64,000 nt of DNA from Candidatus Melainabacteria bacterium (lineage in GTDB: Bacteria; Cyanobacteriota; Vampirovibrionia; 2-02-FULL-35-15), in assembly GCA_016201905.1 (NCBI GenBank), contig JACQBQ010000039.1:913-64912 (forward strand), written 5' to 3'. The notes beneath the pieces were generated by a model. The model was not told where the DNA came from and searched no databases. It saw only the letters and a program-made list of their open reading frames with translations. Below are positions 1 to 22,900 of this stretch, one piece after another. The stretch's first letter is position 1, and every line of letters begins with the position of its first letter. The position numbers were made by a program, and so were the translations under genes.

Positions 1-123
1 ACAAACTATTACTAGGCATAGAGTCAGAGCAAGATTACTAGAGTTGAAGACAATTTCCTTTAAATTTATGACTTTCTGCTTCTTCTCCTTTTTAGTTATA
101 TCTTTTTCAATTGTTTTTGGCAT
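1..123 (-). CDS. Partial CDS with only the N-terminal 41 codons, running off the left edge; possibly a further member of the GT-C/TPR array
   Basis: ATG at 123..121 on the minus strand, open to position 1. It translates to MPKTIEKDITKKEKKQKVINLKEIVFNSSNLALTLCLVIVC, a Lys-rich N-terminus followed by a hydrophobic segment. This is the same layout as the N-termini of the upstream paralogues. It starts 52 nt after the stop of 176..2254. It is absent from the ORF track because it is truncated. Confidence 0.3.
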   Translation of the reverse strand, partial: MPKTIEKDITKKEKKQKVINLKEIVFNSSNLALTLCLVIVC

Positions 124-175
124 ATTTTGTTTTTAAGTATAATTCATTTGTAATACTACTGATTTGTCAATTCAC

Positions 176-2254
176 TTAGCTCTCAGGAACCAGCTTAATG
201 TTATCTTTTGATTTTTTAGCCATGACTTGATTGTTTAATTGTATAAAAACATTATAGGCATCTTCCAGGCTTTCTTTTGAATGTGTTCTAATGCCATACA
301 AATATGAAAACAATGCAAATTGATTCGAGTGATTTATTTCCTTGTAAAACTGTTTTAAGTTAAATAGTGTTTGTGTATCATATGGGAAATATTTAAATGA
401 TTTTTTCAAATAGTTCTCAGCTTTTTGGAAGTCATTATATTTACTTTTGTGTAAAATTGCTAAAGGTATTAATATGACAGGAGTTAATTTTCTTTTTACG
501 CTGTAATTTAATGTTTTTTCAGCTTCGTCCAAATCATTTTTTGCAAATAAAAGTCCAAGATAAAGATCAAGTACCTGTGTATCGATAATGGATAAATCCT
601 GCATGTATGGCTTTAAAATTTCAAAAGCCATTTCTTTATTTCCTTCAAGCCCAATTTTTGTAAGTGCAAGCAGATATGCAGTTTTAGCCTGCATGGCTTT
701 TGGATCAAGCCCATAAGCCTTAATTACTTTTGGGATTTTGTTTTGATATTTTTGTTTTTCCTCTTCAAGCTTTAAAAGTGAATTTTCGAGAATTTCTATT
801 CCGCTGATAAGGTATTCATTACCTTTATCCTTATACTTCTCGCTGTTTGAAGAAAGTAAAAGACTTCCCAACATTTGGAGTCTTAGCGATTTAAACAAAT
901 CGTTTGGAGCTTCCCTTAGAGCTGATACAAATAGTGTTGAACTGTCTTTCCAGTCCAATGTTCGAATATAAGCTCTGATGCTTAAAGTAAGAAGGACTAG
1001 GAACATAATAAATATTTTGGAATGGTTCCAAAATCTATCTTTGTCAGTAGTTATATTTGAAAATAAAAAATGAGAAAGCCCGAATATGAGCATTAGTAAG
1101 GAAAAATACAGATATCGTTCACTTATTAGGCAGTATGTCGGAGAAAAAATATGCAGGAAAGGTAAAAGAGCAATAAAAAAAGGAGCAAATGCAGTAAAGA
1201 AATAAAAGCAAAACCTTTTTCTTATAAAAAAGAATGATAGGCATAAGAGTAAGATAAATGAATACATGAAAATAAATGAACAAATTGAATGGAATGAAAA
1301 TAATGTTTTTGAAAAATCTATTATCATTGTTTGATCGATAGATAGGCGTAGAGGAGAAACGATTAATTTTATAAAATGAAAGAAGATTTGAGGTGATAGC
1401 CAAAAAATTCGCTCAAGTGTGATTGAAATTGGAGTAATCTCTGGAGTGAAAATGTTTCCCCTGATAACAGAAGATAAGAAATAGCCTACATAAACCACTA
1501 GCGCTATTAACAGAGGGAGTGCTTTCTTAAAAGCGGTATTTAGAGATTGTAGAACTGTATCATGTGGATTGTGAAAAGAATGAATCGCATAGATATAGAA
1601 AAATAAAATGAGCGGAACTGTTATAGAATACTCAGAATTAAAAAGGGGGAATAAGAAAAAAATGAAAACAAGTATACGACTCCAGGGATTTTCTTTTGAA
1701 TCAGAATCTATCCAATTAACAAAATAAAATACTAAAATTAAGCAGAGAGTATAAGTCAAAATTGCTGCCCAGTTAGCTGTAAATAAAATTGATTCTATAT
1801 TTACTGGGTGTAGTGCCCATAACAGTGTGAGAAAAGAAACTAACAGATATCTTATTTTGCTCTTCTTTAGAGAAGAACTGCATTGGGTTTCAGAGACTTT
1901 GTTTAAAGTCATATAAAGAAGGAGTGTGTTTAGTAGATGCAATGAAAATGATAAAAAGTGATAAGAAAAAGCATTTTTTTTGAATAAACAATATACAAAT
2001 AATGTAACTAAAGTGTTGATTGGATCACAGCGAAGGTTTGAAATAGTTGAATAAAAAGGATTACTGGCTTCAAAGTGATTATTTAATCCAAAGTATTTAA
2101 TGTATTCAAGAAGTTGTGTGAAAGAAGCAGGTATTGGCAATATTGTTTCGTTAAATATAATCTGTTCGTCAAAATGTTTCCACGGATAGTTTAAGGTATG
2201 TGCAAAAAAAATAGAAACAATTGTTAGTGTTAAAAAACAAAATAAAGTTGCCAT
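176..2254 (-). CDS. TMTC/PMT-like GT-C polytopic membrane glycosyltransferase with C-terminal TPR-like repeats (array member 1 by coordinate)
   Basis: 692-aa ORF with a ~430-aa multi-TM N-terminal region and a helical-repeat C-terminus. Motifs: HFDEQIIFNE after TM1, LLWALHPVNIESIL, ERIFWLSPQIFFHFIKLIVSPLRLSIDQ, ISERYLYF, RTLDWKD. Closest paralogue is 2258..4417. Confidence 0.75.
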   Translation of the reverse strand: MATLFCFLTLTIVSIFFAHTLNYPWKHFDEQIIFNETILPIPASFTQLLEYIKYFGLNNHFEASNPFYSTISNLRCDPINTLVTLFVYCLFKKNAFSYHFLSFSLHLLNTLLLYMTLNKVSETQCSSSLKKSKIRYLLVSFLTLLWALHPVNIESILFTANWAAILTYTLCLILVFYFVNWIDSDSKENPWSRILVFIFFLFPLFNSEYSITVPLILFFYIYAIHSFHNPHDTVLQSLNTAFKKALPLLIALVVYVGYFLSSVIRGNIFTPEITPISITLERIFWLSPQIFFHFIKLIVSPLRLSIDQTMIIDFSKTLFSFHSICSFIFMYSFILLLCLSFFFIRKRFCFYFFTAFAPFFIALLPFLHIFSPTYCLISERYLYFSLLMLIFGLSHFLFSNITTDKDRFWNHSKIFIMFLVLLTLSIRAYIRTLDWKDSSTLFVSALREAPNDLFKSLRLQMLGSLLLSSNSEKYKDKGNEYLISGIEILENSLLKLEEEKQKYQNKIPKVIKAYGLDPKAMQAKTAYLLALTKIGLEGNKEMAFEILKPYMQDLSIIDTQVLDLYLGLLFAKNDLDEAEKTLNYSVKRKLTPVILIPLAILHKSKYNDFQKAENYLKKSFKYFPYDTQTLFNLKQFYKEINHSNQFALFSYLYGIRTHSKESLEDAYNVFIQLNNQVMAKKSKDNIKLVPES

Positions 2255-2257
2255 CTT

Positions 2258-4417
2258 TTATAATCTCCCAAAAATCTGCTCATATATAATTTTAGTCTGG
2301 ATTACTTGTGGATCATTAATATATTCTCTTAAAAGTTTTTGCAGGATATTTTTTGACATCTCTTTGTTGTTTAAAGCAAGATATACATGAGCTGCTTCCT
2401 TTAAACTTTCGGGATCGTGGGTTCTAAGCCCGTAAAGGTATGAATAAAATGCAAATTCTTTCGCATTGTTTAGTTTCTTGTAAAGCCTTTTTAAGCCAAA
2501 TAAAGTAGAAGGATCATATGGAAAATATTTAAAAGATTGATTTAAATATTTTTCAGTAAGTGTCAGATCGTTATATTTGAACTCGCATAAGTCTGACAAA
2601 GCTACAAATAATACTGGACTAAATCTTCTTTGGTTTAGTGCCTTATGTAAGATATTTTCAGCTGCATCAATATTTTTTGTATTAAATAAAATCTGATAGT
2701 AGAAATCCAGAATGATTGTATCTAAAAATCCTAGATTCTTTGCATATGGTTCAAATATTTTATAAGCCTTATAAGGATCACTATTATTAGAGTATTCAGT
2801 GAAAGCTAGTAAAAAGGCTACTTTTGCCTCAAGTGTTTTTGGATCTAACCCATAAAACTTAATGACTTGAGGTGTTTTATCCTGATATTTTATTTTTTTA
2901 TTCTTAAAGTAAATGAGTGCTTTCTTTAAGGTTCTTCTGGAAGCTTCGTTATATTTATTGATGGTATTTTGAGAGATGTCTTTCTGGAAAGTTTTTAATG
3001 AAGAAGCAACCATTTCTAATCTAAGCCCTTTATAAAGATTGTTGGGAGAAGTTTTAATAGCAGATGTAAGTAAAGTGTAACTATCGCTCCAGTCCAGGGT
3101 ACGGAAATAAGTTCTTGTACTTAATGTGCATAGGATTAAAAGCAAAATTATTACTGAAAGGTGGGGTATGAACTTCTTTTGTGAAAAATCTGAAATTAAT
3201 GAAAATAAAATATAAGAAAATCCAATTATAAGAAAAAAAAGTGGAGAGTAAAGGTATCTTTCACTTGCAAGGTTATAAATGGGCGACAGTATATGTAAGA
3301 AAGGGAATAGTGAGAAGAAAAACGGAATAAACAAAATAAAAAGATAAAAGAACCCTCTCCTCCTTACATAAAAAAATGAAATTAAAGAGAGAAAAAGTAA
3401 GCCAAACATAATTAGAAAACATAAAATTGCATAAGGGTGAAAAAGGTAATGGGAAAACTTGACTTGTGCTGTTTGATCGATTGATAAGGTTATCGGGAAG
3501 AAAATTAATTTCAGAAAATGTAAAAATATCTGTGGTGCTAGCCAAAATATTCGTTCTAATGTAACCTCAAGAGGAGTCTTGGCTATCATGTTTAAGTTTT
3601 CTTTTGTCAGAGAAGAAAAGAAATGAAAAATAAAAATTGCAAGTACCAGAAGTAGAGGCAGTAACTTTTTAAGAGAGTATAGTATAGTTTGAAAGGTAAA
3701 ATAATCGGAATGATTATTCTGATGATTAGCATAGATGTAGAAAAATAAAATCAAAGGAAGCGTCACCGAATGTTCGCAAATAAATAGTGATGAAATGAAT
3801 AGAATAAATGTAAGAATAAAAAATGAAAAATGATCTTCAGTCTTTGAATTAAAGAAACAAAATACTGTTGTAAAAGCTAAAGTATAGGAAAGAAGAGTTG
3901 GCCAATTGCATGCAAATAAAACCGGTTCCACTATTGCCGGGTGCAGTGACCATAAAAGAGTTAATAGAGAAATCAGGGAAAGCCTTGTCAAATTAGAAAT
4001 TAAAGAAGTAAGGCTATAATTCTTGGCAACACTGTTCAAAATTAAAAAAAGCAAGCAGGTGTTTATAGTGTGGAGAAGAATTGATGTCAGGTGATAAAGA
4101 GAGACATTCTTTTGAAACAAAAAAAATACAAAAAGTAAAATGAGGTTATTGATTTTGTCACACCTTATATTTGAAATGTTTGAGTATAGAGGATTGCTGG
4201 CTATGAAATGATTGTTAAGTCCAAACAGCTTTATCATTTCAAATATTTCTGAAAATGAGGCTGGAGCAGGCATTACTGTTTCATTGAAAATAATATCTTC
4301 ATCAAAGAACTTCCAAGAATAATTTATAGTGTGTAAGTAAAATAAAAAAACAACTGAGCCTGTTATAAGGCAAATAAACAGAGTCAAATAGTTTTGTTTG
4401 TTTGGATTTGCTTTCAA
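2258..4417 (-). CDS. TMTC/PMT-like GT-C membrane glycosyltransferase with TPR-like C-terminus (array member 2)
   Basis: 719-aa ORF, 3 nt from its neighbour. Motifs: FFDEDIIFNE, LLWSLHPAIVEPVL, ERIFWLAPQIFLHFLKLIFFPITLSIDQ, ASERYLYS, RTLDWSD. Confidence 0.75.
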   Translation of the reverse strand: MKANPNKQNYLTLFICLITGSVVFLFYLHTINYSWKFFDEDIIFNETVMPAPASFSEIFEMIKLFGLNNHFIASNPLYSNISNIRCDKINNLILLFVFFLFQKNVSLYHLTSILLHTINTCLLFLILNSVAKNYSLTSLISNLTRLSLISLLTLLWSLHPAIVEPVLFACNWPTLLSYTLAFTTVFCFFNSKTEDHFSFFILTFILFISSLFICEHSVTLPLILFFYIYANHQNNHSDYFTFQTILYSLKKLLPLLLVLAIFIFHFFSSLTKENLNMIAKTPLEVTLERIFWLAPQIFLHFLKLIFFPITLSIDQTAQVKFSHYLFHPYAILCFLIMFGLLFLSLISFFYVRRRGFFYLFILFIPFFFSLFPFLHILSPIYNLASERYLYSPLFFLIIGFSYILFSLISDFSQKKFIPHLSVIILLLILCTLSTRTYFRTLDWSDSYTLLTSAIKTSPNNLYKGLRLEMVASSLKTFQKDISQNTINKYNEASRRTLKKALIYFKNKKIKYQDKTPQVIKFYGLDPKTLEAKVAFLLAFTEYSNNSDPYKAYKIFEPYAKNLGFLDTIILDFYYQILFNTKNIDAAENILHKALNQRRFSPVLFVALSDLCEFKYNDLTLTEKYLNQSFKYFPYDPSTLFGLKRLYKKLNNAKEFAFYSYLYGLRTHDPESLKEAAHVYLALNNKEMSKNILQKLLREYINDPQVIQTKIIYEQIFGRL

Positions 4418-4419
4418 GT

Positions 4420-6558
4420 TTAAAACCCCTTAGTTCTTGTCTTCTCTAGAGATGAAATTCTATTTTCTGCTCTTAGAGCTTTGTCTTTTTTATTTAATAA
4501 GAAATAAATATTTTGTGCAACCTTTAAATCTTCTGCTGAGTGTGCTCTAAGTCCATAAATATATGAAAAGTCAGCAAATTTTTCATAATCTCCCTTTGCC
4601 TGATATATTTTTTTCAGTAAAGTAAGTGTTCTTATATCGTACGGGAAGTACTTAAATGCTTGCAATGCAAACTTTTCTATTTCTTTCAGGTAAGCTTTAT
4701 CTATTTTTGTTAAATCAGCTGTGATAAAAATTATTCGTAAAGAGTAAGGATCCCTTTCATGTAGAATTTTTAAAATCTCTTCAGATTCAGGTAACATGTT
4801 GTTTTGATAAAATAATGTTGAATAAAAAACGAGTGCATCAACAGGTAGGATAGAAAGATCTTTTATATGTTCCTGCATGATTTTTAAAGCTATTTTTGGA
4901 TCTTTATTTAATCTAAAACTAGTTTGTGCGTATACATATGCTGCCTTTGAAAGAAGTGTTTCTGGATCTAAGCCATAGGTTTTAAGAATAATTGGTGTTA
5001 CTACTTCATACATGTCTGTTTGTTTTTGAAGTTCAGTAATTGCTTGTTTGGCATATTTAATAGCAAGCTTTTTGTATTCTGGTTTAACTTCATCAAGTGG
5101 ACTATCACTTAAGATTTTATCCTGTGGTATTAATTCTTTATATTTAAATGCTTTGTAAAGAGGATTGTCAGTAGTTTTGATTACTGATTTATACAGTGTG
5201 TCATTATTTTTCCAGTCCAGCGTTCTTACATATGCTCTCCCTGAAGATATTGCTAAAAGTATTATTAATATTGAAATCATTAAGTTTGTGAAAGCTTTTT
5301 TATTCTCATATTCTGAAATCCTTAGAAATATAAGATGTGCAAATCCAAAAATTAAAATAAATGAGGAAAAATATAAATATCGTTCACTGGCTAAATTATA
5401 TGATTGAGCTAATACCTGTGAATAAGGTATTAAAGAAAGAAGAAGCGGAATAGTTATTACAAAGAAACTAGGGAATTTTTTGTTTGCTCTTACTAAAGAA
5501 ATAAGAGAGAGAAGTATAGAAATAAAAATAAAACCAATGCAAAAAATTGCAGATGGGTCAAAAAGAGTTTTTGCAATTTTTACAAAAAAAGTCTGGTCTA
5601 TTGAAAGATTAATCGGAAAAAAAATGAGCTTTATGAAATGGAAAATAATTTGAGGAGAAAGCCATAAGATTCTTTCTGTAATTAGAATGGGCGAAAATGT
5701 GCCAATATTGATTCTTGTTCTTGAAAACAAAAAGGATATTACAAATATAAGAGAAGCAGTTAATAATGGTAATGCCTCAAGAATAGTTTCCTTAAAACAT
5801 ATTGGAAATGATTTTGAGAATGAAATAGATTTATGATTGAAGTGTATTTTCATTACCAGTGTGTATGCCATAAGAATAAGTGGAAGCATAAAATTAAACT
5901 CTGCGGTAAAGAGTGCGATTACAAAAGGTACAAATAAAAAAATAAATCTGGAGAATGTAAATCTAACTAGTTTAAAATCCTGAGGTTGTAATTTTAAATA
6001 AATAAAAGCTGTTAGAAAGCAAAGAGTGTGACTTAAAACAATGTTTCCATTTGACAGTAGTAAAACTGATTCCATGTTTACCGGGTGAAGAGCCCACAGT
6101 AATGTAAGTGTAGAAATCAGAATCAGTTTAATTGATTTATTAACTTCATCTTTTAGGAAGAGCTTGGATACTGTATTTAGTATCAGGAATATAAGGATTG
6201 TATTTATTAGATGTAGACTTAGGCTGTAAAGATGATATGAGACAGGATTCTTCTTAAGAAAGAATAGAATCAGCAGCATAAATAGGTTATTGAATATAGG
6301 GTTACAACGAAACGAAATTATATTTGAGTAAAGAGTGTTGGTCGCTTCAAAGCAGTTATTTAGTCCCAGTAAAGATATCAGTTCAAACATTTCAGAGAAT
6401 GAACTACATATAGGAAGGTAGCTTTCTTGTAGAGGTACTATTTCATCATAAGCTTTTATCTGATAAAAAATTGTATGAGAGAAAAAAATAAATACAATTA
6501 GGCAGCTAATAATGCATGTTAAAGCAGTCAGATTGATCTTCTTTGACTTTTGTTTCAT
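4420..6558 (-). CDS. TMTC/PMT-like GT-C membrane glycosyltransferase with TPR-like C-terminus (array member 3)
   Basis: 712-aa ORF. Motifs: AYDEIVPLQE, LLWALHPVNMESVL, ERILWLSPQIIFHFIKLIFFPINLSIDQ, ASERYLYF, RTLDWKN. Closest paralogue is 6561..8714. Confidence 0.75.
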   Translation of the reverse strand: MKQKSKKINLTALTCIISCLIVFIFFSHTIFYQIKAYDEIVPLQESYLPICSSFSEMFELISLLGLNNCFEATNTLYSNIISFRCNPIFNNLFMLLILFFLKKNPVSYHLYSLSLHLINTILIFLILNTVSKLFLKDEVNKSIKLILISTLTLLWALHPVNMESVLLLSNGNIVLSHTLCFLTAFIYLKLQPQDFKLVRFTFSRFIFLFVPFVIALFTAEFNFMLPLILMAYTLVMKIHFNHKSISFSKSFPICFKETILEALPLLTASLIFVISFLFSRTRINIGTFSPILITERILWLSPQIIFHFIKLIFFPINLSIDQTFFVKIAKTLFDPSAIFCIGFIFISILLSLISLVRANKKFPSFFVITIPLLLSLIPYSQVLAQSYNLASERYLYFSSFILIFGFAHLIFLRISEYENKKAFTNLMISILIILLAISSGRAYVRTLDWKNNDTLYKSVIKTTDNPLYKAFKYKELIPQDKILSDSPLDEVKPEYKKLAIKYAKQAITELQKQTDMYEVVTPIILKTYGLDPETLLSKAAYVYAQTSFRLNKDPKIALKIMQEHIKDLSILPVDALVFYSTLFYQNNMLPESEEILKILHERDPYSLRIIFITADLTKIDKAYLKEIEKFALQAFKYFPYDIRTLTLLKKIYQAKGDYEKFADFSYIYGLRAHSAEDLKVAQNIYFLLNKKDKALRAENRISSLEKTRTKGF

Positions 6559-6560
6559 TC

Positions 6561-8714: not shown

Positions 8715-11041
8715 TTTTTATTTTCAGGCATTAACATTATTAATTGTTCTAACTCTTTTGTATACTTTTTTGCTTCAACCACATCATTTGAATTTAAGTT
8801 GAATTTTATTAAACCAATAAGAATACTTTTATATATGTCAGCATTTAACGGATTATAATTGTATAGATTTTTTGCTGCTAAATATGCTTCAGTTAAGGTT
8901 GGAATAACTTTTTCTTTTTCATTTGAAAGATAATAATATTTGCTAAGCAGTAAAAGTGTTATTGGATTTTGCCTGTCAAGCATTAGTAATTTAATCAGAG
9001 GTTTGTGAGCTTTGTTTAACTCATTTAGTGATAGATATAGTTGTAAGGATTTTTGGTAACCCTGTATTGAATGTATTCTTAAGCCCAGCAAATACTCGTA
9101 TTTAGCTAAGTTTTCAGTATCTTTTTTTAATTCATAAAGTTTAATCATCCTTTTTAGCATACGCTTATAAGTGGGATAAAAATTGTACCCGAATTCAATA
9201 ATTCTGGATGCTTTGATCAATTCATTTTTGTTTAAATATAAATTGCTGAGTGTATAAATTATAGTTGGGGAAAATGGATACTTGTCCCATGCATATTCAA
9301 GTATTTTCTGGGATTTATCTACTTGCTTGGTTGCATTTAGTAATTTTGCATACAGATCAAGTTCTGCACAGCCAGCGTATTTTATGTTTGGTTCTATAAT
9401 AGGTTCGTAAAATCGCAGGATATTATCAGGGTTTTCATTAAAGTGATTAAGCCTTATATTTGAAATTGTGTATGATGAACTTATTAATAAAGAAGTTGGG
9501 TCTAAGCCATAAACTCTTAGCGTCTGAGGAATTTGAATATGTCTGTGTTGTTTTTCATTTAGTTCTGTAGCTGCCCCTACTAATTCTTTTATACTTTTAT
9601 CTAAAAACATCCTCATTTTATTTCTTTCACCGATGCTGTCAAAGTAATAACCAAGTATTGAGTGTATTTGCCCTTTGTATAAGTTATCCTTTTTGCATTG
9701 AAGAGCTGAGCTGTAAAGAGTGTAAGTATTTTCCCATGCTTTAAGTCCGGTAACTGTTTTTATACCGAGTAAAATAGGGATTATAACTAAAATCGAATAA
9801 AGAAGCTTTTTATTCAATAGTGGTGATTGTTCAAAAGTAATTCTTATTGAGTGAATTAAAATTACTGAAGTAAATATGCCAACAAATAGTGGAAAGTAAC
9901 AATACCTTTCTGCTATTAAACAATATGTCGGAGAAATAATATGCAAAAATGGAAAAACAGAAAACAAAAAACTATAAATCAATGGAAAGGTAAATTTTAT
10001 CTTACTGGTTTTATTGAGAAAGAAGAGAATAGCAGGTATTAAAAGAAATTCTAAAAAAATAATTAGTTTAAATAGTGCAAGAGGATTAAAAATGGAATCC
10101 GATAAGTTTACTAAATTAGATTGATTGATCGATAGGTTTACTGGATAAATAAACAATTTTAAGAAATGAAAAAATATGTGTGGTGTTATAAGCAAAACTC
10201 TTTCAAGGAGCGGGCTTGTGAGCTGTTCTGAATACAATGAATGAGGCAAAAGTATAAGTGAGTAATATAAAACAAAAGATATAAGTCCTAAAAAAAATGG
10301 AATGCAAATTTTAAATGAATCTATAAATGCTTTTAAAACTGACCTGGAAAAATTATATGCAAATGAAAATGAAATAAAATACAAAATCAGAGGTAAAGTA
10401 TAGTTGTGCTCGTTTATTAAAAGTGACAGAAAATATAACAGTGTCAGCGAAATAATTTCTAAGCTTGTGTTCTCAAAATTGTTTTTATAAATCTTTTTTG
10501 TAATGTATAAGATAAATGCAAATGAAAAAGTATAGTTAAATAACATTGTCCAGTTTGTAGCCAGTTGTACTGCTTCTATGTTTGTCGGGTGTAATGCCCA
10601 CAGTAATGTAAGCAAAGTTGAAATAATCCAAATTCTGTTTGTTGCAAGCTTTAAAAATGACAATAATTGATAAAAAATTAGCCAGGTAAAAGCTGTGTTT
10701 ATCAGGTGCATTAAAACCCCAAATAAGTGATAGTAGAAAGCATTTTTTTTAAATAGATAGAATATAAGGATGTTGAAAATAGCTCCCAATGCATTTGAAT
10801 ATCTCGCATTGATTATGTTTGAGAAGAATGCATTTTGAGAATCAGTGTGGTAATTAAATGCATAAGTACGAATTATTTCGAATAACTCAGTAATATTTAA
10901 TGGTATAGGGAAAAGAGATTCATTAGATATAAGCCTTTCATCAAAGAACTGCCATTCCCGATTTAGTGAAGGTAGGTAAACCAATAAAACAATAATAATT
11001 GTAGTAAATAAAAAAAATAATTTTTTAATCTCTTTTTCCAT
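8711..11041 (-). CDS. TMTC/PMT-like GT-C membrane glycosyltransferase with extended TPR-like C-terminus (array member 5)
   Basis: 776-aa ORF. Motifs: FFDERLISNE, LLWALHPTNIEAVQ, ERVLLITPHIFFHFLKLFIYPVNLSINQ, IAERYCYF. It carries a ~110-aa extra C-terminal helical-repeat extension that is also present in member 7. Confidence 0.75.
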   Translation of the reverse strand: MEKEIKKLFFLFTTIIIVLLVYLPSLNREWQFFDERLISNESLFPIPLNITELFEIIRTYAFNYHTDSQNAFFSNIINARYSNALGAIFNILIFYLFKKNAFYYHLFGVLMHLINTAFTWLIFYQLLSFLKLATNRIWIISTLLTLLWALHPTNIEAVQLATNWTMLFNYTFSFAFILYITKKIYKNNFENTSLEIISLTLLYFLSLLINEHNYTLPLILYFISFSFAYNFSRSVLKAFIDSFKICIPFFLGLISFVLYYSLILLPHSLYSEQLTSPLLERVLLITPHIFFHFLKLFIYPVNLSINQSNLVNLSDSIFNPLALFKLIIFLEFLLIPAILFFLNKTSKIKFTFPLIYSFLFSVFPFLHIISPTYCLIAERYCYFPLFVGIFTSVILIHSIRITFEQSPLLNKKLLYSILVIIPILLGIKTVTGLKAWENTYTLYSSALQCKKDNLYKGQIHSILGYYFDSIGERNKMRMFLDKSIKELVGAATELNEKQHRHIQIPQTLRVYGLDPTSLLISSSYTISNIRLNHFNENPDNILRFYEPIIEPNIKYAGCAELDLYAKLLNATKQVDKSQKILEYAWDKYPFSPTIIYTLSNLYLNKNELIKASRIIEFGYNFYPTYKRMLKRMIKLYELKKDTENLAKYEYLLGLRIHSIQGYQKSLQLYLSLNELNKAHKPLIKLLMLDRQNPITLLLLSKYYYLSNEKEKVIPTLTEAYLAAKNLYNYNPLNADIYKSILIGLIKFNLNSNDVVEAKKYTKELEQLIMLMPENKK

Positions 11042-11050
11042 AGATAATTT

Positions 11051-13078
11051 TTAAATCTTTTGCCCCTTTAAATCAAGATGTATCTGAGCTGCTTTTTGAT
11101 AAGCTTTTGTACTGTGACTCCTTAGTCCAATCAAATATGCAAACTTGGCTTGATTTTCAAGATCATTTTTTAAGGTGTAATATCTAAAAAATTGTATAAG
11201 AGTTTGTAAATCCCCTGGATAATATTTATAAGCATACTGTAATATATCAAATGCTTTTTCAAGAGTTTTATTACTTATTAAGTAGTAATTAGAAAGAGAA
11301 TGCAGTATTGACGAACAATATAGAAACCTGTTGTGTGCATTTTCTAAGACTTGTACGGCTTTGTCGGTTTGTCCTGCTTTCACAAGAATATTTGCATACA
11401 TGGCAATTTCATTTATAAAAGCTAAATGAAGTTTATTTTTTATATATGGCTCGTAGAAAGCTAATATTTTTTTTGCATCTTCGTGGTAATAGTCTTCTTT
11501 TACAGTGGTGATTAAGTATGCAGTTTTTATAATTAATGAATCATAATCAAGCCCATAAGATTGAAGTATAGCTGGCTGGCTTGGATATTTCTTTCTTAAG
11601 ATTTTAAATTGTTTTAATGCCATTTTTAAAAATGGCAGACTTCCCTCTAAAGATTTTTTTGCAGAAGCTTTTTTGCCTTTGATTTGTAGCTGGGTCGTAT
11701 AAGTAATCAGCTTTTGTGCTTTATACAGTGGATTGTTTTCTATTTTTATTGCTGATTCTAAAAGCTTATCTCCATTGGACCAGTCTTGAATCCTGATTAT
11801 TGTTCTGCCTGAGAGGAGAAGAAGTAGGGATGAAAGTAGTATAAGTGCAGACTTCAGTTTTTTTTGATCGATTAGTGAATGAAAAACACTAAACAAAATC
11901 ACAAGGAGTATGAATGAAGGGAAATAACAATATCTGTCAGCTATTAAACAATAGTTTGGTGAAAGAACATGTAAAAAAGGAAAAAGTGCAAAATAAAAAG
12001 CATAAATTAATAGACAGATTAGTCTAATGTCCTGATTTTTTCTTGAGAATAGTAAAATAACTGGAGAAAGAATAAAAAACAAGTATAAGAGGGTACAAAG
12101 TACCGAATGCAAATCAAAAAGCGTACTTGATAGGTGTATAAGATTTGATTGGTAAGTTGACAATGTTTTGGGGAAAAGTAAAAGCTTTAAAAAAGAGAGG
12201 AATATTTGTGGTACAAGCCATAGATTCCTTTCTATAAACAGATAAGTTGTGTTAGAGCCCAAGAAACTTTTTGTAGCGGGATTGTTTCTTATGAATGAAT
12301 ATAAAACAAAAATTGCTATACCAATGAAATATGGTGATGAAAGTTTGAATGAAGTAACACCAGCTTCTCTTATTGATCCGATTTTTTTATATGTATAAGC
12401 AAAGATAAAAAAGAATATAACTAATGGAAATGTGTAGGCATGCTCTGCAAAGAACATGGAAAGTAAGACCAATGCTGGAATAAGAAAGAACTCTAGAGAT
12501 GTAACCTTGAAATCATTATCGATGATTTTAAAAGTCTCATAAAGTATAAAGCCAAAACAAAAAGTATAAGTAAAAATCATATTCCAATTTGTTGCAAGCA
12601 GTACAGCTTCAGTGTTTGCACTATGTAATGCCCATATAGCAGTAAACAGAGAAATAAGAAATAGATTAGGAAGAGAGATTTTATTTGAAAACAATTTTGT
12701 AATTTTATAGAAAATAACCCAAATGAGCGCTGTATTTATCAGATGAATTAGTAGTTGAAGTGTGTGATAGGGGAAAGGGTTTTTCTTGAAAAAATATGAC
12801 ATTAAGACTACAGATATTGAAGTTAAAATGGGCTCACTACGAACAGATAGCTGGCTTGAGAAAAAAGTGTTCATTGATTCCAGATGACAGTTAAGTACAA
12901 AATATTTAATAATTTCAAAAATTTCACTTATGGAGGAAGGTGTTGGAAATAGTGATTCATCTTTTAGTATGCGTTCATCAAAAAAGAGCCAATCTCTATT
13001 TAAAGAAGGTATATATATTAAAAGAACTAAAAGTAAAGTTCCAAAAAGAAAGAAAAGTTTGTTTTTACTTCTTTCCAT
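11051..13078 (-). CDS. TMTC/PMT-like GT-C membrane glycosyltransferase with TPR-like C-terminus (array member 6)
   Basis: 675-aa ORF. Motifs: FFDERILKDE, AIWALHSANTEAVL, ERNLWLVPQIFLSFLKLLLFPKTLSTYQ, IADRYCYF, RIQDWSN. Closest paralogue is 13082..15556. Confidence 0.75.
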   Translation of the reverse strand: MERSKNKLFFLFGTLLLVLLIYIPSLNRDWLFFDERILKDESLFPTPSSISEIFEIIKYFVLNCHLESMNTFFSSQLSVRSEPILTSISVVLMSYFFKKNPFPYHTLQLLIHLINTALIWVIFYKITKLFSNKISLPNLFLISLFTAIWALHSANTEAVLLATNWNMIFTYTFCFGFILYETFKIIDNDFKVTSLEFFLIPALVLLSMFFAEHAYTFPLVIFFFIFAYTYKKIGSIREAGVTSFKLSSPYFIGIAIFVLYSFIRNNPATKSFLGSNTTYLFIERNLWLVPQIFLSFLKLLLFPKTLSTYQSNLIHLSSTLFDLHSVLCTLLYLFFILSPVILLFSRKNQDIRLICLLIYAFYFALFPFLHVLSPNYCLIADRYCYFPSFILLVILFSVFHSLIDQKKLKSALILLSSLLLLLSGRTIIRIQDWSNGDKLLESAIKIENNPLYKAQKLITYTTQLQIKGKKASAKKSLEGSLPFLKMALKQFKILRKKYPSQPAILQSYGLDYDSLIIKTAYLITTVKEDYYHEDAKKILAFYEPYIKNKLHLAFINEIAMYANILVKAGQTDKAVQVLENAHNRFLYCSSILHSLSNYYLISNKTLEKAFDILQYAYKYYPGDLQTLIQFFRYYTLKNDLENQAKFAYLIGLRSHSTKAYQKAAQIHLDLKGQKI

Positions 13079-13081
13079 AAG

Positions 13082-15556
13082 TTATATTCCTGCTTGAAGT
13101 AACTGTTGTTTAATATTTAGGATTTGTTTCTTTTCTATTTGTGTTAAATCCTTTATTCCTTCAAGTTCATTTAAGTATTTTCTTACACTTGAAAAATCTT
13201 TTAAGTGAGTATTCACATTAATTAAGCTTGTAAGTATTCCTTTAGTGACTCGTATATCTTTATTGGTACCAAGTGCCTTGTCAGCAAGATAAGCAGCATT
13301 TAGTATTTCAAGTATCTTACTTCTTTTCCCACTTACATCTAAGTATCTGCTCATAAGTAGTAATGAAAGAGGATCGTTTGCATTTAATCTAACAAGCTTC
13401 TTTAGTGTTTTATGAGCTTCAGGTAAATTATTTAAATCAAGATATATTTGAGCTGCCTTTTGATACCCCTTTGCGTAGTGATCTCTTAAACCAAGCAGAT
13501 AGGAAAACTTGGCTTGATTTATGAGGTCATTTTTTATTTCATAGTATCTAAGTAGTTTATACAATGTAATGCCCTTGTTAGGGAAATACTTGTAAGAATA
13601 TTGTAAAAGTTCAAAAGCTTTCTCCTGATTTTTTTCGTAATCCAAATAAAAATCTGCCAGTGCATGCATTAAGTCCATGTAATATGGAAATTTTTTAAAT
13701 CCATACTCCAGCACACTTTTAGCTTTTTCAATTTGCCCATCACTTAATAGAAGTTTTGCATAATAAAGAAGCTGATTACATGAGAGTAAATCAAGATCGT
13801 TCTTTATATACTTTTCAAAAAAAGCAAGTATATCTTTAGGTGGTACCTGATAGTTATCGCTTCTAATTATTGCAATTCCAAAAGCAGCTTTTAAAAGCTG
13901 AGTATCATAATCTAAACCGTACAATTTTAAAGTTACTGGCTGTACTGGATTCCTTTTTCTCAATATTCTTAACTGCTTAATTGCTTTTTGTAGTTCTTTT
14001 ATAGCTTCTTGATAATATTCTTCCATCTTGCCCATCATTTTTTGAGACCCAAAAACGTCACCTAATACGGTGAGTTTTTTGCCTTTGTAAAGGGGGTCTT
14101 TTTCAATTTTTATGGCTGAATCATAAAATGTGTAGGCATTGCTCCAGTCCTGAATTCTTACTAGTGTTCTGACTGTCATAAGGAAAAGTAAGCATAATAG
14201 GATAGAAATAACCGCACTAGGTCTTTTCCAATTTGAAAAGGTGCACAGACTTATATATATAAGGAATAAAAGTAAAAATGATGGGAAGTAACAGTACCTG
14301 TCTGCGATTAAGCAATATGTAGGTGTAATTATTTGCAGGTAAGGGATGAGTGAGAAGAGAAAAGCATAAAATAATATACAAATAAATTTAACATTTTGAT
14401 TTTTTACTAAGATGAATAAGGTCAATGGCAAAAGAATAAAAATCAAATAAAATAGTGTACAAAATATTGAATAAGGCTCAAAAATTGAATTAGCTAGATG
14501 TACATGATTTGATTGATATGCTGAAAGTGTCTTAGGGAAAACCAGTAGTTTTATAAAATGAAAAAAGATTTGAGGTGTAAGCCACAGATTTCTTTCAAGA
14601 AAAATATAAAAGGAAGATTCCTTTATATGGTTGTCTAAAGTTTCTTTGTTACTAAACAGAGAAGCCATGGGAGAGTCTGCTTGTAAAAATGAGGTTAATA
14701 AAAATAAAATCAAGCCTATAAAATAAGGGGAAGATAGTTTAAGTGAAGTAAGAAGTGAATATTTAAACTTGTTGGATTGCCTGAGCATAAATGCAAAAAT
14801 AACAAATAAGATAATTAATGGGAATGAATAGCCATGCTCTGCAAAAGACATTTGGAGTAAAAATAAGCAGGAGATTATAAATATCCTTAATTTTGAGTTT
14901 TTAAAGTTGTTCTCTAAAATTCTGGATATTTCATAGAGCAAAAATGCAAAGCAAAATGTAAAAGTGAGAATTCCATTCCAATTTGTTGCAAGCAGTACAG
15001 CTTCAGTATTTGCGCTGTGTAATGCCCAGAGAAGCGTAAATAAAGAAATGACTGTATAAACAAGGTGATTTTGTTCATTATTATGCAGATATTTAAATAC
15101 CTGTGAGATTTTTTTTAAGATAAACCATACAAGAACAGTATTAATAAGATGAATTACAAGTAGGAATGAGTGATAAAGGAAAGGGCTTGTTTTAAAAAAG
15201 TAAGAAATAAAAACAAAAATTGACCAGGCTAATGGTACTGAGCGAATTGTCATATGGTTTGAAAATGTGCTGTTCATTGACTCAGTATGGCAATTAACTA
15301 CAAATGTGTGTATATCTTCAAAGATTTCATCAAGCCTTGTTGGTATTGGTAGAAGTGTTTCAGCATAAATAATTTTTTCATCGAAAGGTTGCCAGGGCCT
15401 AAATAGTGAAAAAGAATAAATGATAAGGACAAGTAGCATTGTGCCTAAAAGGTATAGTGAGTTTATATTTGTAAATTTTTTAATTAGTGCCTGTAATAAA
15501 GTCTCTTTGTTATTTTTTTTGAAGGTATTTGGTTTTTTAAATCTTACTTTTGCCAT
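13082..15556 (-). CDS. TMTC/PMT-like GT-C membrane glycosyltransferase with extended TPR-like C-terminus (array member 7, first gene of the operon)
   Basis: 824-aa ORF. Motifs: PFDEKIIYAE, LLWALHSANTEAVL, ERNLWLTPQIFFHFIKLLVFPKTLSAYQ, IADRYCYF, RIQDWSN. It has a longer basic N-terminus and the C-terminal extension shared with member 5. Confidence 0.75.
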   Translation of the reverse strand: MAKVRFKKPNTFKKNNKETLLQALIKKFTNINSLYLLGTMLLVLIIYSFSLFRPWQPFDEKIIYAETLLPIPTRLDEIFEDIHTFVVNCHTESMNSTFSNHMTIRSVPLAWSIFVFISYFFKTSPFLYHSFLLVIHLINTVLVWFILKKISQVFKYLHNNEQNHLVYTVISLFTLLWALHSANTEAVLLATNWNGILTFTFCFAFLLYEISRILENNFKNSKLRIFIISCLFLLQMSFAEHGYSFPLIILFVIFAFMLRQSNKFKYSLLTSLKLSSPYFIGLILFLLTSFLQADSPMASLFSNKETLDNHIKESSFYIFLERNLWLTPQIFFHFIKLLVFPKTLSAYQSNHVHLANSIFEPYSIFCTLFYLIFILLPLTLFILVKNQNVKFICILFYAFLFSLIPYLQIITPTYCLIADRYCYFPSFLLLFLIYISLCTFSNWKRPSAVISILLCLLFLMTVRTLVRIQDWSNAYTFYDSAIKIEKDPLYKGKKLTVLGDVFGSQKMMGKMEEYYQEAIKELQKAIKQLRILRKRNPVQPVTLKLYGLDYDTQLLKAAFGIAIIRSDNYQVPPKDILAFFEKYIKNDLDLLSCNQLLYYAKLLLSDGQIEKAKSVLEYGFKKFPYYMDLMHALADFYLDYEKNQEKAFELLQYSYKYFPNKGITLYKLLRYYEIKNDLINQAKFSYLLGLRDHYAKGYQKAAQIYLDLNNLPEAHKTLKKLVRLNANDPLSLLLMSRYLDVSGKRSKILEILNAAYLADKALGTNKDIRVTKGILTSLINVNTHLKDFSSVRKYLNELEGIKDLTQIEKKQILNIKQQLLQAGI

Positions 15557-15604
15557 TTATAGAAATTGTACTTTTGAATATACACGGTTTTTTATACTCG
15601 TTTT

Positions 15605-15633
15605 AAAATATTAGGTTTTTATAAATTTGACAA
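15605..15633 (-). promoter_or_regulatory. Candidate sigma70-type promoter for the GT-C/TPR operon
   Basis: On the minus strand: TTGTCA (15633..15628), a 17-nt spacer, then TATTTT (15610..15605). It lies ~50 nt upstream of the ATG at 15556. This is a hexamer match only. Confidence 0.3.
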
Positions 15634-15855
15634 ATTATTATTAGTATATGTCTTTTATTTCCGTTAGGATTTCTCCTAAAGTTTCTCCAAATAATACATA
15701 ATTCAAGGTCAGGAGAAATTTACTAAAGGTTAGAATAACTACATTAACAGCTAGAAAGATAAAAAGAATAACTCGTATTACCCTTTAATATAAACTTAGA
15801 TAGTGTTAACAGGAACTTTATGATTGAGTTGAAGTTCAAACAAACTGGTGTATTC

Positions 15856-15884
15856 TTGACTTTGGCGTGTTAGACAAAATTATT
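15856..15884 (+). promoter_or_regulatory. Weak candidate promoter for the giant surface-protein gene
   Basis: TTGACT at 15856..15861, a 17-nt spacer, then ATTATT at 15879..15884. The -10 match is poor. It lies ~105 nt upstream of the ATG at 15991. Confidence 0.2.
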
Positions 15885-15990
15885 TTGAAGTTTTTTAATT
15901 AAAATTTCAAAATAGCTTGGTCTAAAACAAAAAAGTTATTGTGTAAGTTAAAGGATGTTAACAATAATAATTAAGAAGGAGTAGAAATTA

Positions 15991-20194: not shown

Positions 20195-20308
20195 CAAATT
20201 AAATTAACATCATTTAAAAAATGAAAAAGGATTAAAAAAGAAAAAGATAGGATAGGTACGGTAAAAAAGATTTATTGGTTTTATTAGGAAAGGGTGGAGG
20301 AAAATAAA

Positions 20309-22801: not shown

Positions 22802-22900
22802 ATGAAACAGAAGCAGCAAAGAGGTTTAAAGCGTGCAATGAAAGTCTTAAAGAGAAAAAGAAAGAAAAGAATGCTTAATAAAATTGAAAAGATTAAATGA
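22802..22900 (+). CDS. 32-aa extremely basic micro-ORF, translationally coupled to the aminotransferase gene
   Basis: AAGGAG at ~22791..22796, ATG at 22802. Translates to MKQKQQRGLKRAMKVLKRKRKKRMLNKIEKIK. Its TGA stop (22898..22900) overlaps the ATG of the next gene (22897) as ATGA. It is below the ORF-track size cut-off. Confidence 0.4.
   Translation: MKQKQQRGLKRAMKVLKRKRKKRMLNKIEKIK

What the first reader, a model, noticed from the sequence alone, without database searches (positions are those of the whole stretch)
176..15556. Seven consecutive paralogous TMTC/PMT-like genes arranged as nested tandem duplications
Seven minus-strand ORFs of 675-824 aa are separated by -4 to +9 nt.

All of them share:
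- a D-E pair directly after TM1 (F/Y-D-E-x3-4-E)
- LLWALHP.N.E.V, or HSANTEAV in two members
- ER..WL.PQI..HF.KL...P..LS..Q
- (S/A)(E/D)RY(L/C)Y
- a transition (RTLDW / RIQDW) into a helical-repeat C-terminus

These correspond to the loop-1 acidic motif, the HP.HTEAV-type motif and the ER.LYLPS-type motif of animal TMTC proteins.

Similarity is clearly pairwise: members 1 and 2, members 3 and 4, and members 6 and 7, with member 5 closest to the 6/7 pair. This implies repeated local duplication. Members 5 and 7 share an extra ~110-aa C-terminal repeat extension. A further gene starts at 123 and may extend the array beyond the window.
Basis: partly seen in the sequence, partly recalled or inferred. 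Interest (0 to 1): 0.8.

Follow-up and report, generated by a model that had tools for sequence, protein, structure and literature searches.

The report
Tandem array of membrane glycosyltransferase paralogs
Seven (probably eight or more) back-to-back genes encode diverged copies of a membrane sugar-transferase fused to a protein-binding repeat domain; they sit next to genes for large serine/threonine-rich secreted proteins, so they are most likely a dedicated surface-protein glycosylation system in an uncultured relative of the cyanobacteria.

Summary
Seven minus-strand ORFs (675-824 aa; gaps -4 to +9 nt) are clear paralogs, and an eighth starts at base 123.

Each has an 11-helix membrane domain followed by a TPR-like helical-repeat domain (AlphaFold pLDDT 95.8). 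Pfam and NCBIfam see nothing in the membrane domain. GT-C membership rests on three indirect lines:
- A family profile reaches bacterial TM+TPR proteins at E 1e-29 to 1e-39. Some of these pass Pfam PMT or come close to TMTC_DUF1736.
- Every high-probability structural match of the membrane domain is a GT-C glycosyltransferase (AglB, PglB, STT3, DPY19, ALG3, Pmt1).
- The published TMTC/GT-C catalytic motifs are invariant in 118 homologs.

The duplications are mostly ancient. Related groundwater 'Melainabacteria' MAGs carry collinear arrays of 4 to at least 11 copies, in a fixed class order. Only members 3 and 4 are a lineage-specific duplicate.

Divergently upstream, in six genomes, lie a 1384-aa and a 471-aa secreted Ser/Thr-rich protein and two amino-sugar genes. 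These proteins are candidate acceptors.

Best reading: periplasmic, lipid-phosphate-sugar-dependent protein O-glycosyltransferases with class-specific acceptor recognition. It is a new variant of a known kind and of moderate interest.

The parts
1..123 (-). N-terminal 41 codons of an eighth family member that runs off the window; probably class X1
   Evidence: Translation. Best local matches are N-termini of X1-class genes in L010 and L001 (scores 58 and 52; shuffled maximum 46). The position matches the conserved class order.
176..2254 (-). Member 1 (692 aa), class A: 11-TM GT-C-like domain (aa 1-435) plus helical-repeat domain
   Evidence: 869 bits to the family profile. Ortholog L007:14217-16298 at 53% identity.
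2258..4417 (-). Member 2 (719 aa, TTG start), class B
   Evidence: It clusters with L001, L003, L004 and L007 class-B genes in the tree.
4420..6558 (-). Member 3 (712 aa), class C; lineage-specific duplicate of member 4
   Evidence: 58% identity to member 4, and the two are sisters in the NJ tree.
6561..8714 (-). Member 4 (717 aa), class C; the modelled protein
   Evidence: AlphaFold2 model with pLDDT 95.8 and pTM 0.94: 11 TM helices, then helix pairs from residue 457. N-terminal model with pLDDT 84.4. Foldseek neighbours are GT-C enzymes.
8711..11041 (-). Member 5 (776 aa), class E; carries the C-terminal TPR extension; 4-nt overlap with member 4
   Evidence: Orthologs in L001, L002, L003 and L007. 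TPR_19 and PEP_TPR_lipo-type weak hits.
11051..13078 (-). Member 6 (675 aa), class G; lacks the C-terminal extension
   Evidence: 49% identity to member 7.
13082..15556 (-). Member 7 (824 aa), class G; first gene of the array; carries the C-terminal TPR extension
   Evidence: TPR_14 at 41.6 bits and TPR_19 at 31.3 bits, both above Pfam cut-offs.
15557..15990 (.). 434-bp divergent intergenic region between the array and the Ser/Thr-rich protein gene; presumed to hold promoters in both directions
   Evidence: Read directly. The promoter scan is not above chance, so the promoter role is inferred from gene arrangement only.
15991..20145 (+). 1384-aa secreted protein, 25% Ser+Thr and 25% Ala+Gly, no known domain; candidate glycosylation acceptor
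   Evidence: Translation with a Sec-type signal peptide. Composition, and conserved position next to the array in L002, L003, L005, L006 and L007 at 53-59% identity. No Pfam hit and no PDB sequence hit.
20294..21709 (+). 471-aa secreted Ser/Thr-rich protein with a poly-Ser tract; second candidate acceptor
   Evidence: 28% Ser+Thr and conserved synteny in L003, L005, L006 and L007.
21884..22771 (+). 295-aa secreted protein of unknown function, conserved in the cluster
   Evidence: Homologs at the same place in L005 and L006. No Pfam hit.
22897..24042 (+). DegT/DnrJ/EryC1-family sugar aminotransferase
   Evidence: Pfam PF01041, 427 bits. 67% identical orthologs at the same place in L005 and L006.
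24043..25953 (-). Polysacc_synt_2 (PglF/CapD-type) membrane-anchored nucleotide-sugar 4,6-dehydratase
   Evidence: Pfam PF02719, 337 bits. 66-67% identical orthologs in L005 and L006.

Best explanation
The array is an operon of at least eight paralogous inner-membrane glycosyltransferases of the GT-C fold. Their architecture is that of animal TMTC proteins: 11 transmembrane helices with the N-terminus in the cytoplasm, followed by a periplasmic TPR-like domain.

Inferred mechanism, by analogy with GT-C enzymes:
- The invariant Asp35-Glu36 pair in the first periplasmic loop (member-4 numbering) acts on the acceptor hydroxyl and/or a metal ion.
- Invariant Arg81, Arg300 and Arg397 hold the donor phosphate.
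- The TPR domain presents the acceptor protein.

The most likely acceptors are the Ser/Thr-rich secreted proteins encoded divergently next door. The conserved paralog classes would then differ in which acceptor segments, or which sugars, they handle.

What is shown: the paralogy, the domain architecture and topology, the conservation of catalytic-type residues, the conserved class order, and the conserved synteny.

What is inferred: enzymatic activity, the donor, the acceptor, and the division of labour.
For: Architecture and topology:
- The AlphaFold2 model of member 4 has pLDDT 95.8 and pTM 0.94, with 11 TM helices followed by repeated helix pairs.
- K+R density is 0.277 in the predicted cytoplasmic loops against 0.062 in the outer loops, over 118 homologs.

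GT-C placement:
- The N-terminal profile finds 48,976 cluster representatives at E<=1e-3 but only 115 at E<=1e-30, so this is a tight family inside a very large superfamily.
- The next-nearest relatives are bacterial TM+TPR proteins with YDD, YRP, HPvHTEAV, SKEMAxTLP, AERYLYLPS and RNxDW motifs, which align column for column with the window family.
- Two of these relatives pass Pfam PMT (28.9 bits, cut-off 22.7). Seven of 18 hit TMTC_DUF1736 at E<=1 (best 25.9 bits, cut-off 27), in the loop equivalent to residues 282-338.
- In the Foldseek search with the N-terminal model, all seven hits with probability >=0.72 are GT-C enzymes: AglB 5gmy and 7e9s, PglB 5ogl, DPY19 7zlh, STT3 9n9j_I, ALG3 9s6r and Pmt1 6p25. 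Non-GT-C hits have probability <=0.21.

Catalytic-type residues over 118 homologs:
- Invariant: D35, R81, H112, E167, N174, E224, R300, R397, Y398.
- E36 in 113, with D in the other five.
- These match the roles assigned to the DD/DE motif, the EL1 basic residue, the TM3 HP.HTEAV motif and the EL5 AER motif in TMTCs and solved GT-Cs (PMC7801869).

Operon and context:
- Gaps of -4 to +9 nt between the seven genes.
- The class order G-E-C-B-A-X1-X2 is conserved in related MAGs.
- The 1384-aa and 471-aa secreted Ser/Thr-rich proteins and the DegT and PglF-like genes sit at the same position in five other genomes.

Domain divergence: TPR domains differ more than TM domains between classes but not between orthologs.

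Precedent: bacterial GT-C enzymes that glycosylate Ser/Thr-rich extracytoplasmic protein regions from polyprenyl-phosphate sugars (PMC11092751).
Against: - No curated model (Pfam, NCBIfam) hits the membrane domain of any window protein. The family consensus gives only sub-threshold hits, to DUF6056 and Glucos_trans_II.
- HMM searches of PDB sequences with the family profile, and with the broadened profile, find no GT-C.
- hhalign against E. coli ArnT, alone or as a low-diversity alignment, is not significant.
- Foldseek E-values are weak (0.011-1.1) and TM-scores modest (0.31-0.43).
- No polyprenyl-phosphate glycosyltransferase (GT2) or flippase gene was found in the 64-kb window.
- The Lys of the SKE motif and the Asp of the RxD motif, present in the bacterial TMTC-like relatives, are replaced in this family. 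The acceptor site is therefore not the canonical one.
- The link to the Ser/Thr-rich proteins rests on synteny alone.
Confidence: 0.6

Rival explanations
1. The paralogs are GT-C glycosyltransferases that build or decorate a non-protein polymer, such as a periplasmic or cell-wall polysaccharide or a lipid-linked glycan. Each paralog would make a different linkage, as the Emb and Aft arabinosyltransferases do in mycobacteria or ArnT does on lipid A. The TPR domains would serve for complex assembly.
For: All GT-C evidence applies equally. Several specialised GT-C paralogs per glycan is an established pattern in mycobacterial arabinan synthesis (own knowledge). Sugar-nucleotide genes lie nearby. 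The acceptor-side residues differ from those of TMTC-like relatives.
Against: TPR domains are protein-binding modules, and in TMTCs they accompany protein acceptors (PMC7801869). The only tightly conserved non-enzyme neighbours are two secreted Ser/Thr-rich proteins. No polysaccharide export, polymerase or ligase genes were seen in the window.
Confidence: 0.2
2. The paralogs do not divide labour among acceptors. Instead they assemble into one hetero-oligomeric enzyme complex, as Pmt1-Pmt2 or EmbA-EmbB do, so the conserved stoichiometric set is needed for a single activity.
For: The class order and class content are conserved across genomes. Translational coupling is suggested by gaps of -4 to +9 nt. 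PMTs act as dimers (PMC7759382 abstract).
Against: Copy number varies from 4 to at least 11. Whole classes (G and E) are absent from L005 and L006. Individual classes were duplicated independently in three genomes. None of this is expected for a fixed complex. All copies keep the full catalytic residue set.
Confidence: 0.12
3. The proteins are not enzymes. They would be membrane-anchored TPR scaffolds or chaperones for secretion or assembly of the neighbouring surface proteins, and the GT-C-like domain would be a degenerate membrane anchor.
For: No curated glycosyltransferase model hits them. The canonical D/K pair of relatives is lost.
Against: Residues equivalent to the GT-C catalytic and phosphate-binding positions are invariant over 118 diverged sequences (30-58% identity). 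This argues for retained catalysis. The TM domain is more conserved than the TPR domain.
Confidence: 0.05

Closest known systems
Animal TMTC1-4 protein O-mannosyltransferases (Pfam TMTC_DUF1736 plus TPR)
   Same: Both have an N-terminal 11-TM GT-C domain followed by TPR repeats on the non-cytoplasmic side. Both have an acidic pair right after TM1, an HP...E.V motif at the end of TM3, a long TM7-TM8 loop with a hydrophobic non-membrane helix ending in L-S-x-D, an (A/S)ER motif before TM10, and several paralogs per genome (PMC7801869).
   Different: The acidic pair is DE rather than DD. The Pfam TMTC_DUF1736 model does not hit the window proteins. The loop motif ends in DQ rather than DW. The Asp/Lys pair equivalent to TMTC1 D169/K219 appears replaced (the mapping is inferred). 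The host is bacterial, there are no cadherin substrates, and the C-terminal repeats are so diverged that most score below Pfam TPR cut-offs.
Uncharacterised bacterial TM+TPR 'TMTC-like' proteins (for example P0186-P0257, from Elusimicrobia, Terriglobia and others)
   Same: Same architecture, and alignable over the whole TM domain at E 1e-29 to 1e-39. These are the direct bridge to Pfam PMT, PMT_2 and TMTC_DUF1736.
   Different: Only about 20% identity. They carry canonical TPRs, YDD rather than FDE, and SKE and RxD motifs that the window family lacks. None of the four loci inspected holds an array like this one; L013 has two to three adjacent copies.
ArnT (GT83) and fungal or actinobacterial PMT (GT39)
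   Same: GT-C fold, a DE catalytic pair in loop 1, and a polyprenyl-phosphate monosaccharide donor (PMC7801869). Pmt1 appears among the structural neighbours.
   Different: There is no MIR domain: the TM7-TM8 loop is only about 57 residues. The C-terminal domain is a TPR domain, not ArnT's periplasmic domain. hhalign to ArnT is not significant.
Oligosaccharyltransferases AglB, PglB and STT3 (GT66)
   Same: These are the best structural neighbours of the TM domain (probability 0.95-1.0), and they share the conserved Arg before TM10 that binds the donor phosphate.
   Different: No WWD motif and no OST-type C-terminal domain. Weak E-values (0.011-0.07).
Streptococcal Pgf and PgtC2 GT-C systems that glycosylate Ser/Thr-rich protein regions
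   Same: A bacterial GT-C enzyme with an outward-facing active site modifies Ser/Thr-rich extracytoplasmic protein segments, using a lipid-phosphate sugar made by a GT-A enzyme (PMC11092751).
   Different: Those enzymes belong to a different GT-C family (YfhO-type), have no TPR domain and occur as one or two genes, not as an array. No homology was tested here.

Membership tests
GT-C glycosyltransferase superfamily | Polytopic membrane domain (8-13 TM helices) with the N-terminus in the cytoplasm and long first and later extracytoplasmic loops | tested here: met
   The AlphaFold model has 11 TM helices, with EL1 at residues 29-100 and EL4 at 282-338. The positive-inside rule holds: K+R density 0.277 inside against 0.062 outside.
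GT-C glycosyltransferase superfamily | Conserved acidic residue or pair (DxD, DD, DE) in the first extracytoplasmic loop | tested here: met
   D35 in 118/118 homologs. E36 in 113/118, with D in the other five. Present in all seven window proteins.
GT-C glycosyltransferase superfamily | Structural similarity of the TM domain to solved GT-C enzymes | tested here: inconclusive
   All seven Foldseek hits with probability >=0.72 are GT-C enzymes (AglB, PglB, DPY19, STT3, ALG3, Pmt1). However, E-values are 0.011-1.1 and TM-scores 0.31-0.43.
GT-C glycosyltransferase superfamily | Significant match of the window proteins themselves to a curated GT-C family model | tested here: not met
   No Pfam or NCBIfam hit in the TM domain. 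The family consensus gives only sub-threshold DUF6056 and Glucos_trans_II hits. PDB HMM searches are empty.
GT-C glycosyltransferase superfamily | Homology to curated GT-C families through intermediate sequences | tested here: met
   The family profile reaches P0203 at E 6.7e-33. P0203 and one other relative score 28.9 bits on Pfam PMT (cut-off 22.7). PMT_2 and TMTC_DUF1736 hits occur in further relatives.
GT-C glycosyltransferase superfamily | Use of a polyprenyl-phosphate-linked sugar donor | not testable with these tools
   Needs biochemistry. Invariant R81, R300 and R397 are candidate phosphate ligands, by analogy only.
TMTC family (Pfam PF08409 TMTC_DUF1736 plus TPR) | 11 TM helices followed by a C-terminal TPR domain on the non-cytoplasmic side | tested here: met
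   (model). TPR proteins are the top structural matches of the full model. (topology). Pfam TPR_14 and TPR_19 are above cut-off in member 7, and TPR_19 in member 2.
TMTC family (Pfam PF08409 TMTC_DUF1736 plus TPR) | Match to the DUF1736 model (TM7-TM8 loop) at Pfam's gathering score | tested here: not met
   No hit in any window protein. Even the bridging bacterial relatives reach only 23.2-25.9 bits against a cut-off of 27.
TMTC family (Pfam PF08409 TMTC_DUF1736 plus TPR) | HP.HTEAV-type motif at the end of TM3 and AER-type Arg before TM10 | tested here: met
   H162 in 107/118, P163 in 115/118, E167 in 118/118. E396 in 115/118, R397 in 118/118. Motif definitions are from PMC7801869.
TMTC family (Pfam PF08409 TMTC_DUF1736 plus TPR) | Asp before TM4 and Lys after TM5 (D169/K219 of TMTC1; acceptor-side salt bridge) | tested here: not met
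   In alignment A5 the RxD and SKE motifs of the bacterial relatives face N/T/A and A/N/C/T in the window family. Only the Glu (E224) is kept. The mapping to TMTC1 numbering is inferred.
PMT family (GT39) | MIR (beta-trefoil) domain inserted in the large luminal loop | tested here: not met
   The TM7-TM8 loop is about 57 residues and helical in the model. No MIR hit in Pfam.
ArnT family (GT83) | Profile-level similarity to ArnT | tested here: inconclusive
   hhalign probability is 0.1-0.7%. The ArnT alignment available had an effective diversity of only 1.6, so the test had little power.
Oligosaccharyltransferase (GT66: STT3, PglB, AglB) | WWD[YW]G motif in a C-terminal soluble domain | tested here: not met
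   No WWD in any of the seven proteins. The C-terminal domain is a helical repeat.

The most novel reading that the evidence does not exclude
The cluster is a self-contained, multi-enzyme periplasmic O-glycosylation machine. Each conserved TMTC-like class would use its own TPR domain to recognise a different region or site class of one giant Ser/Thr-rich surface (S-layer-like) protein encoded next door. That would make it a bacterial, genetically linked enzyme-substrate counterpart of the animal TMTC-cadherin pathway, in which the acceptor code of TPR-bearing GT-C enzymes could be read directly.
Probability: 0.3. Interest if true: 0.75.

Novelty: new variant of a known kind. Interest (0 to 1): 0.55.

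Why it matters
TPR-bearing GT-C enzymes are very numerous in bacteria: about 49,000 cluster representatives match this family's membrane-domain profile. The literature searches done here turned up no characterised bacterial member. For the animal TMTCs, how the TPR domain selects acceptors is still open.

This locus has three useful properties:
- It puts up to eleven diverged paralogs, in a fixed order, directly beside candidate substrates and sugar-precursor genes.
- It therefore offers enzyme-substrate pairs that can be tested by heterologous co-expression.
- It provides a natural series for mapping which TPR changes go with which acceptor sites.

It also shows that current Pfam and NCBIfam models miss a whole clade of GT-C enzymes. 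If the proteins turn out to act on a polysaccharide instead, the finding is an ordinary, if unusually large, glycosyltransferase gene cluster.

Tried and rejected
- Single-sequence Pfam and NCBIfam scans of all seven proteins gave only weak C-terminal TPR hits.
- HMM searches of PDB sequences found only TPR proteins (full-length profile), nothing (N-terminal profile), or one chance hit at E 0.17 (broadened profile).
- Foldseek with the full-length model was swamped by TPR proteins. I therefore modelled the N-terminal domain separately and searched again.
- hhalign of the family against E. coli ArnT alone, and against a 14-sequence ArnT alignment, was not significant. The ArnT homologs returned were all at least 76% identical to each other, so the test was weak.
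- The family consensus against Pfam gave only sub-threshold DUF6056 and Glucos_trans_II hits.
- The promoter and terminator scan of 1-16100 was not above chance.
- The exact-sequence look-up of member 1 found nothing. A 478-aa fragment of member 4 lies on a 2-kb Logan contig (SRR12113409) that adds no context.
- I considered horizontal transfer because the array has 29-30% GC against 33-36% for most of the window. I rejected it as unsupported: the low GC fits the Phe/Ile/Leu/Asn/Lys-rich membrane proteins, and the array is syntenic in relatives.
- I looked for a polyprenyl-phosphate GT2 or a flippase in the window and found none.
- Literature searches found no description of tandem TMTC-like arrays or of characterised bacterial TMTC homologs.
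Full report
**1. The observation**

The window holds seven minus-strand ORFs at exactly the stated coordinates. They encode 692, 719, 712, 717, 776, 675 and 824 aa and are separated by 3, 2, 2, -4, 9 and 3 nt. They align over their whole length with 48% mean column identity and 65 invariant columns.

- m1-m2: 47%
- m3-m4: 58%
- m6-m7: 49%
- m5 to m6 or m7: 40-41%
- all other pairs: 31-42%

The listed motifs are present, with small exceptions. Member 5 has ERVLLITPH and GLKAW. Member 6 has S in place of the H of HF.KL. Members 5 and 7 share an alignable C-terminal extension.

The 41 codons visible from base 123 leftwards look like a family N-terminus. They match best the N-termini of the class that follows the member-1 class in related arrays (score 58; shuffled maximum 46). 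The array therefore has at least eight members and runs off the window.

**2. What the proteins are**

Pfam and NCBIfam detect only weak TPR signals in the C-terminal third, and nothing in the first ~450 residues.

A search of the large protein collection with member 4 found 149 relatives. All are unnamed or 'hypothetical'. The named ones come from groundwater 'Candidatus Melainabacteria' MAGs.

With a 118-sequence alignment, AlphaFold2 gives a very confident model of member 4 (pLDDT 95.8, pTM 0.94). It shows:
- 11 transmembrane helices;
- a long first outer loop (residues 29-100) with two short helices and a beta-hairpin;
- a second long loop (residues 282-338) with a hydrophobic helix;
- from residue 457, a stack of helix pairs.

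Lys+Arg density is 0.277 in the loops predicted to be cytoplasmic and 0.062 in the others. The N-terminus is therefore inside, and the conserved loops and the repeat domain face the periplasm.

**3. Placement in the GT-C superfamily**

The full model matches TPR proteins (consensus TPRs, OGT, SPINDLY, APC subunits), so I modelled the membrane domain alone (pLDDT 84.4). Its Foldseek neighbours with high probability are all GT-C glycosyltransferases:

| Enzyme | PDB entry | Probability |
|---|---|---|
| AglB | 5gmy, 7e9s | 1.00, 0.99 |
| PglB | 5ogl | 0.99 |
| DPY19 | 7zlh | 0.95 |
| STT3 | 9n9j_I | 0.95 |
| DPY19 | 7zlg | 0.85 |
| ALG3 | 9s6r | 0.72 |
| Pmt1 | 6p25 | 0.72 |

Transporters and receptors score 0.21 or less. 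The E-values (0.011-1.1) and TM-scores (0.31-0.43) are weak, so on its own this is suggestive only.

A profile of the N-terminal domains was searched against 1.84 billion cluster representatives. It found 48,976 proteins at E<=1e-3, 14,447 at E<=1e-10, and only 115 at E<=1e-30. The window family is thus a tight clade inside a very large superfamily.

The next-nearest relatives (E 1e-29 to 1e-39) are bacterial proteins with the same TM+TPR architecture. Their motifs align with those of the window family as follows:

| Bacterial TM+TPR relatives | Window family |
|---|---|
| YDD | FDE |
| YRP | R81..P |
| HPvHTEAV | LHP.N.E.V |
| SKEMAxTLP | AEY..LP |
| AERYLYLPS | SERYLY.P |
| RNxDW | RTLDW |

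Two of these relatives pass Pfam's PMT cut-off (28.9 bits against 22.7). Three hit PMT_2. Seven of 18 hit TMTC_DUF1736 at E<=1, the best at 23-26 bits against a cut-off of 27. Those DUF1736 hits fall in the loop that aligns with residues 282-338 of member 4.

The motifs correspond to those described for TMTC1-4 and rationalised on ArnT, PMT and OST structures in PMC7801869:
- the DD/DE catalytic pair in loop 1;
- a basic residue before the second loop-1 helix;
- HP.HTEAV at the end of TM3;
[quoted passage not shown] In 118 homologs D35, R81, H112, E167, N174, E224, R300, R397 and Y398 are invariant. E36 is E in 113 and D in the other five.

Direct tests against solved structures by sequence failed or lacked power:
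- PDB HMM searches;
- hhalign to ArnT;
- the family consensus against Pfam.

I therefore treat superfamily membership as well supported. Membership of the TMTC family in the strict sense is not established.

One difference may matter. The Lys of SKE and the Asp of RxD in the bacterial relatives are both replaced in this family. By inference these are the D169/K219-type acceptor-side pair.

**4. History of the array**

One scan of species-representative genomes returned 12 loci from 'Melainabacteria' or 'Caenarcanales' MAGs, one of them labelled Gammaproteobacteria. In these loci the family occurs as same-strand tandem arrays of 4 to at least 11 genes. L001 has 11 in 22 kb and is cut at both ends.

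A neighbour-joining tree, together with gene order, shows conserved classes in a conserved order: G (one or two copies) - E - C (one or two) - B (one or two) - A - X1 - X2. The window members map as follows:
- Members 7 and 6 are class G, member 5 is E, members 4 and 3 are C, member 2 is B and member 1 is A. The truncated eighth gene is probably X1.
- Members 3 and 4 are sisters, so this duplication is lineage-specific.
- Classes C and B were duplicated independently in L001 and L002.
- L005 and L006 lack classes G and E.

The 'nested tandem duplication' picture is therefore right as history. Most of it predates the divergence of these genomes, whose orthologs are about 50% identical.

Between paralogs the TM domain is more conserved than the TPR domain (37.7% against 31.6% identity). 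TM identity exceeds TPR identity in 92% of the 1,770 pairs. Between cross-genome orthologs the two domains are equally conserved (46-55% against 47-53%). That is the pattern expected if each class has its own conserved acceptor specificity.

I built no maximum-likelihood tree and computed no support values.

**5. Context**

Across a 434-bp divergent intergenic region lies a 1384-aa protein with a Sec-type signal peptide. It is 25% Ser+Thr, 25% Ala+Gly and only 10% charged residues, and has no Pfam or PDB match. Four further genes follow it:
- a 471-aa secreted Ser/Thr-rich protein with a poly-Ser tract;
- a 295-aa secreted protein of unknown function;
- a DegT-family sugar aminotransferase;
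- a PglF/CapD-type dehydratase.

The same genes, in the same order, flank the array in L002, L003, L005, L006 and L007. The large protein is 53-59% identical in those loci.

The rest of the window is ordinary chromosome: gidA, prfA-like, polA, infC, ppx and others. No polyprenyl-phosphate GT2 or flippase gene was found in it.

**6. Mechanism proposed**

The proposal is by analogy with GT-C enzymes (PMC7801869) and with bacterial GT-C systems that glycosylate Ser/Thr-rich extracytoplasmic segments (PMC11092751).
- Each paralog binds a polyprenyl-phosphate sugar at the periplasmic face.
- Asp35/Glu36 activate the acceptor hydroxyl or bind a metal ion.
- Arg81, Arg300 and Arg397 hold the donor phosphate.
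- The TPR domain holds the unfolded or extended acceptor.
- The neighbouring Ser/Thr-rich proteins are the likely acceptors.

The structure, topology, conservation and synteny are shown. The activity, donor, acceptor and division of labour are inferred. My confidence in this reading is about 0.6.

The rivals are:
- GT-C enzymes acting on a non-protein glycan (0.2);
- one hetero-oligomeric complex (0.12);
- non-catalytic scaffolds (0.05).

**7. Novelty and verdict**

The kind of protein is known: a GT-C transferase with a TPR domain. Bacterial homologs of TMTCs have been noted in passing.

What appears new:
- a clade invisible to curated models;
- its organisation as a conserved, ordered array of up to eleven paralogs;
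- its fixed linkage to candidate substrates.

My literature searches found nothing on this.

I rate it a new variant of a known kind, with interest 0.55.

Noticed in passing
window 15991-20145 (+): The 1384-aa secreted protein (25% Ser+Thr, 25% Ala+Gly, 10% charged) has no Pfam or PDB sequence match. Its gene has about 41% GC against about 30% in the adjacent array. It may be an S-layer-like surface protein.
   Followed up: partly
window 20294-21709 (+) and 21884-22771 (+): Two further secreted proteins of unknown function. The first contains the poly-Ser tract SSSTSTSSSSSSSTS. Both are conserved at the same position in related MAGs.
   Followed up: partly
window 22897-25953: A convergent DegT aminotransferase and PglF/CapD-type dehydratase pair, which suggests synthesis of a 4-amino-4,6-dideoxy-hexose-type sugar. 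It is conserved next to the Ser/Thr-rich genes in L005 and L006.
   Followed up: partly
L011:3250-7638 and L012:1611-5803; also L006:20277-22019: In relatives, a DUF2298 membrane protein, a radical SAM/SPASM enzyme and an LPG_synthase_TM-family membrane protein lie between or after family genes (in L006 only a weak, sub-threshold DUF2298 hit). They may be further parts of the same pathway.
   Followed up: no
L005 (CAZRTB010000002.1): The record is titled 'uncultured Gammaproteobacteria'. It carries the same array and the same flanking genes as the Melainabacteria MAGs, so the label is probably wrong.
   Followed up: no
window 44923-45855, 45858-46865, 52514-54166, 60057-62933: Four sizeable ORFs (310, 335, 550 and 958 aa) with no Pfam match.
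   Followed up: no
window 4415-4417 (-): Member 2 appears to start at TTG. The N-terminus read from that codon aligns with the other members.
   Followed up: partly
L013 (Terriglobia MAG) 5071-12963: A distant genome also has two to three adjacent TM+TPR genes of the wider superfamily. Small tandem sets may therefore be common beyond this clade.
   Followed up: no
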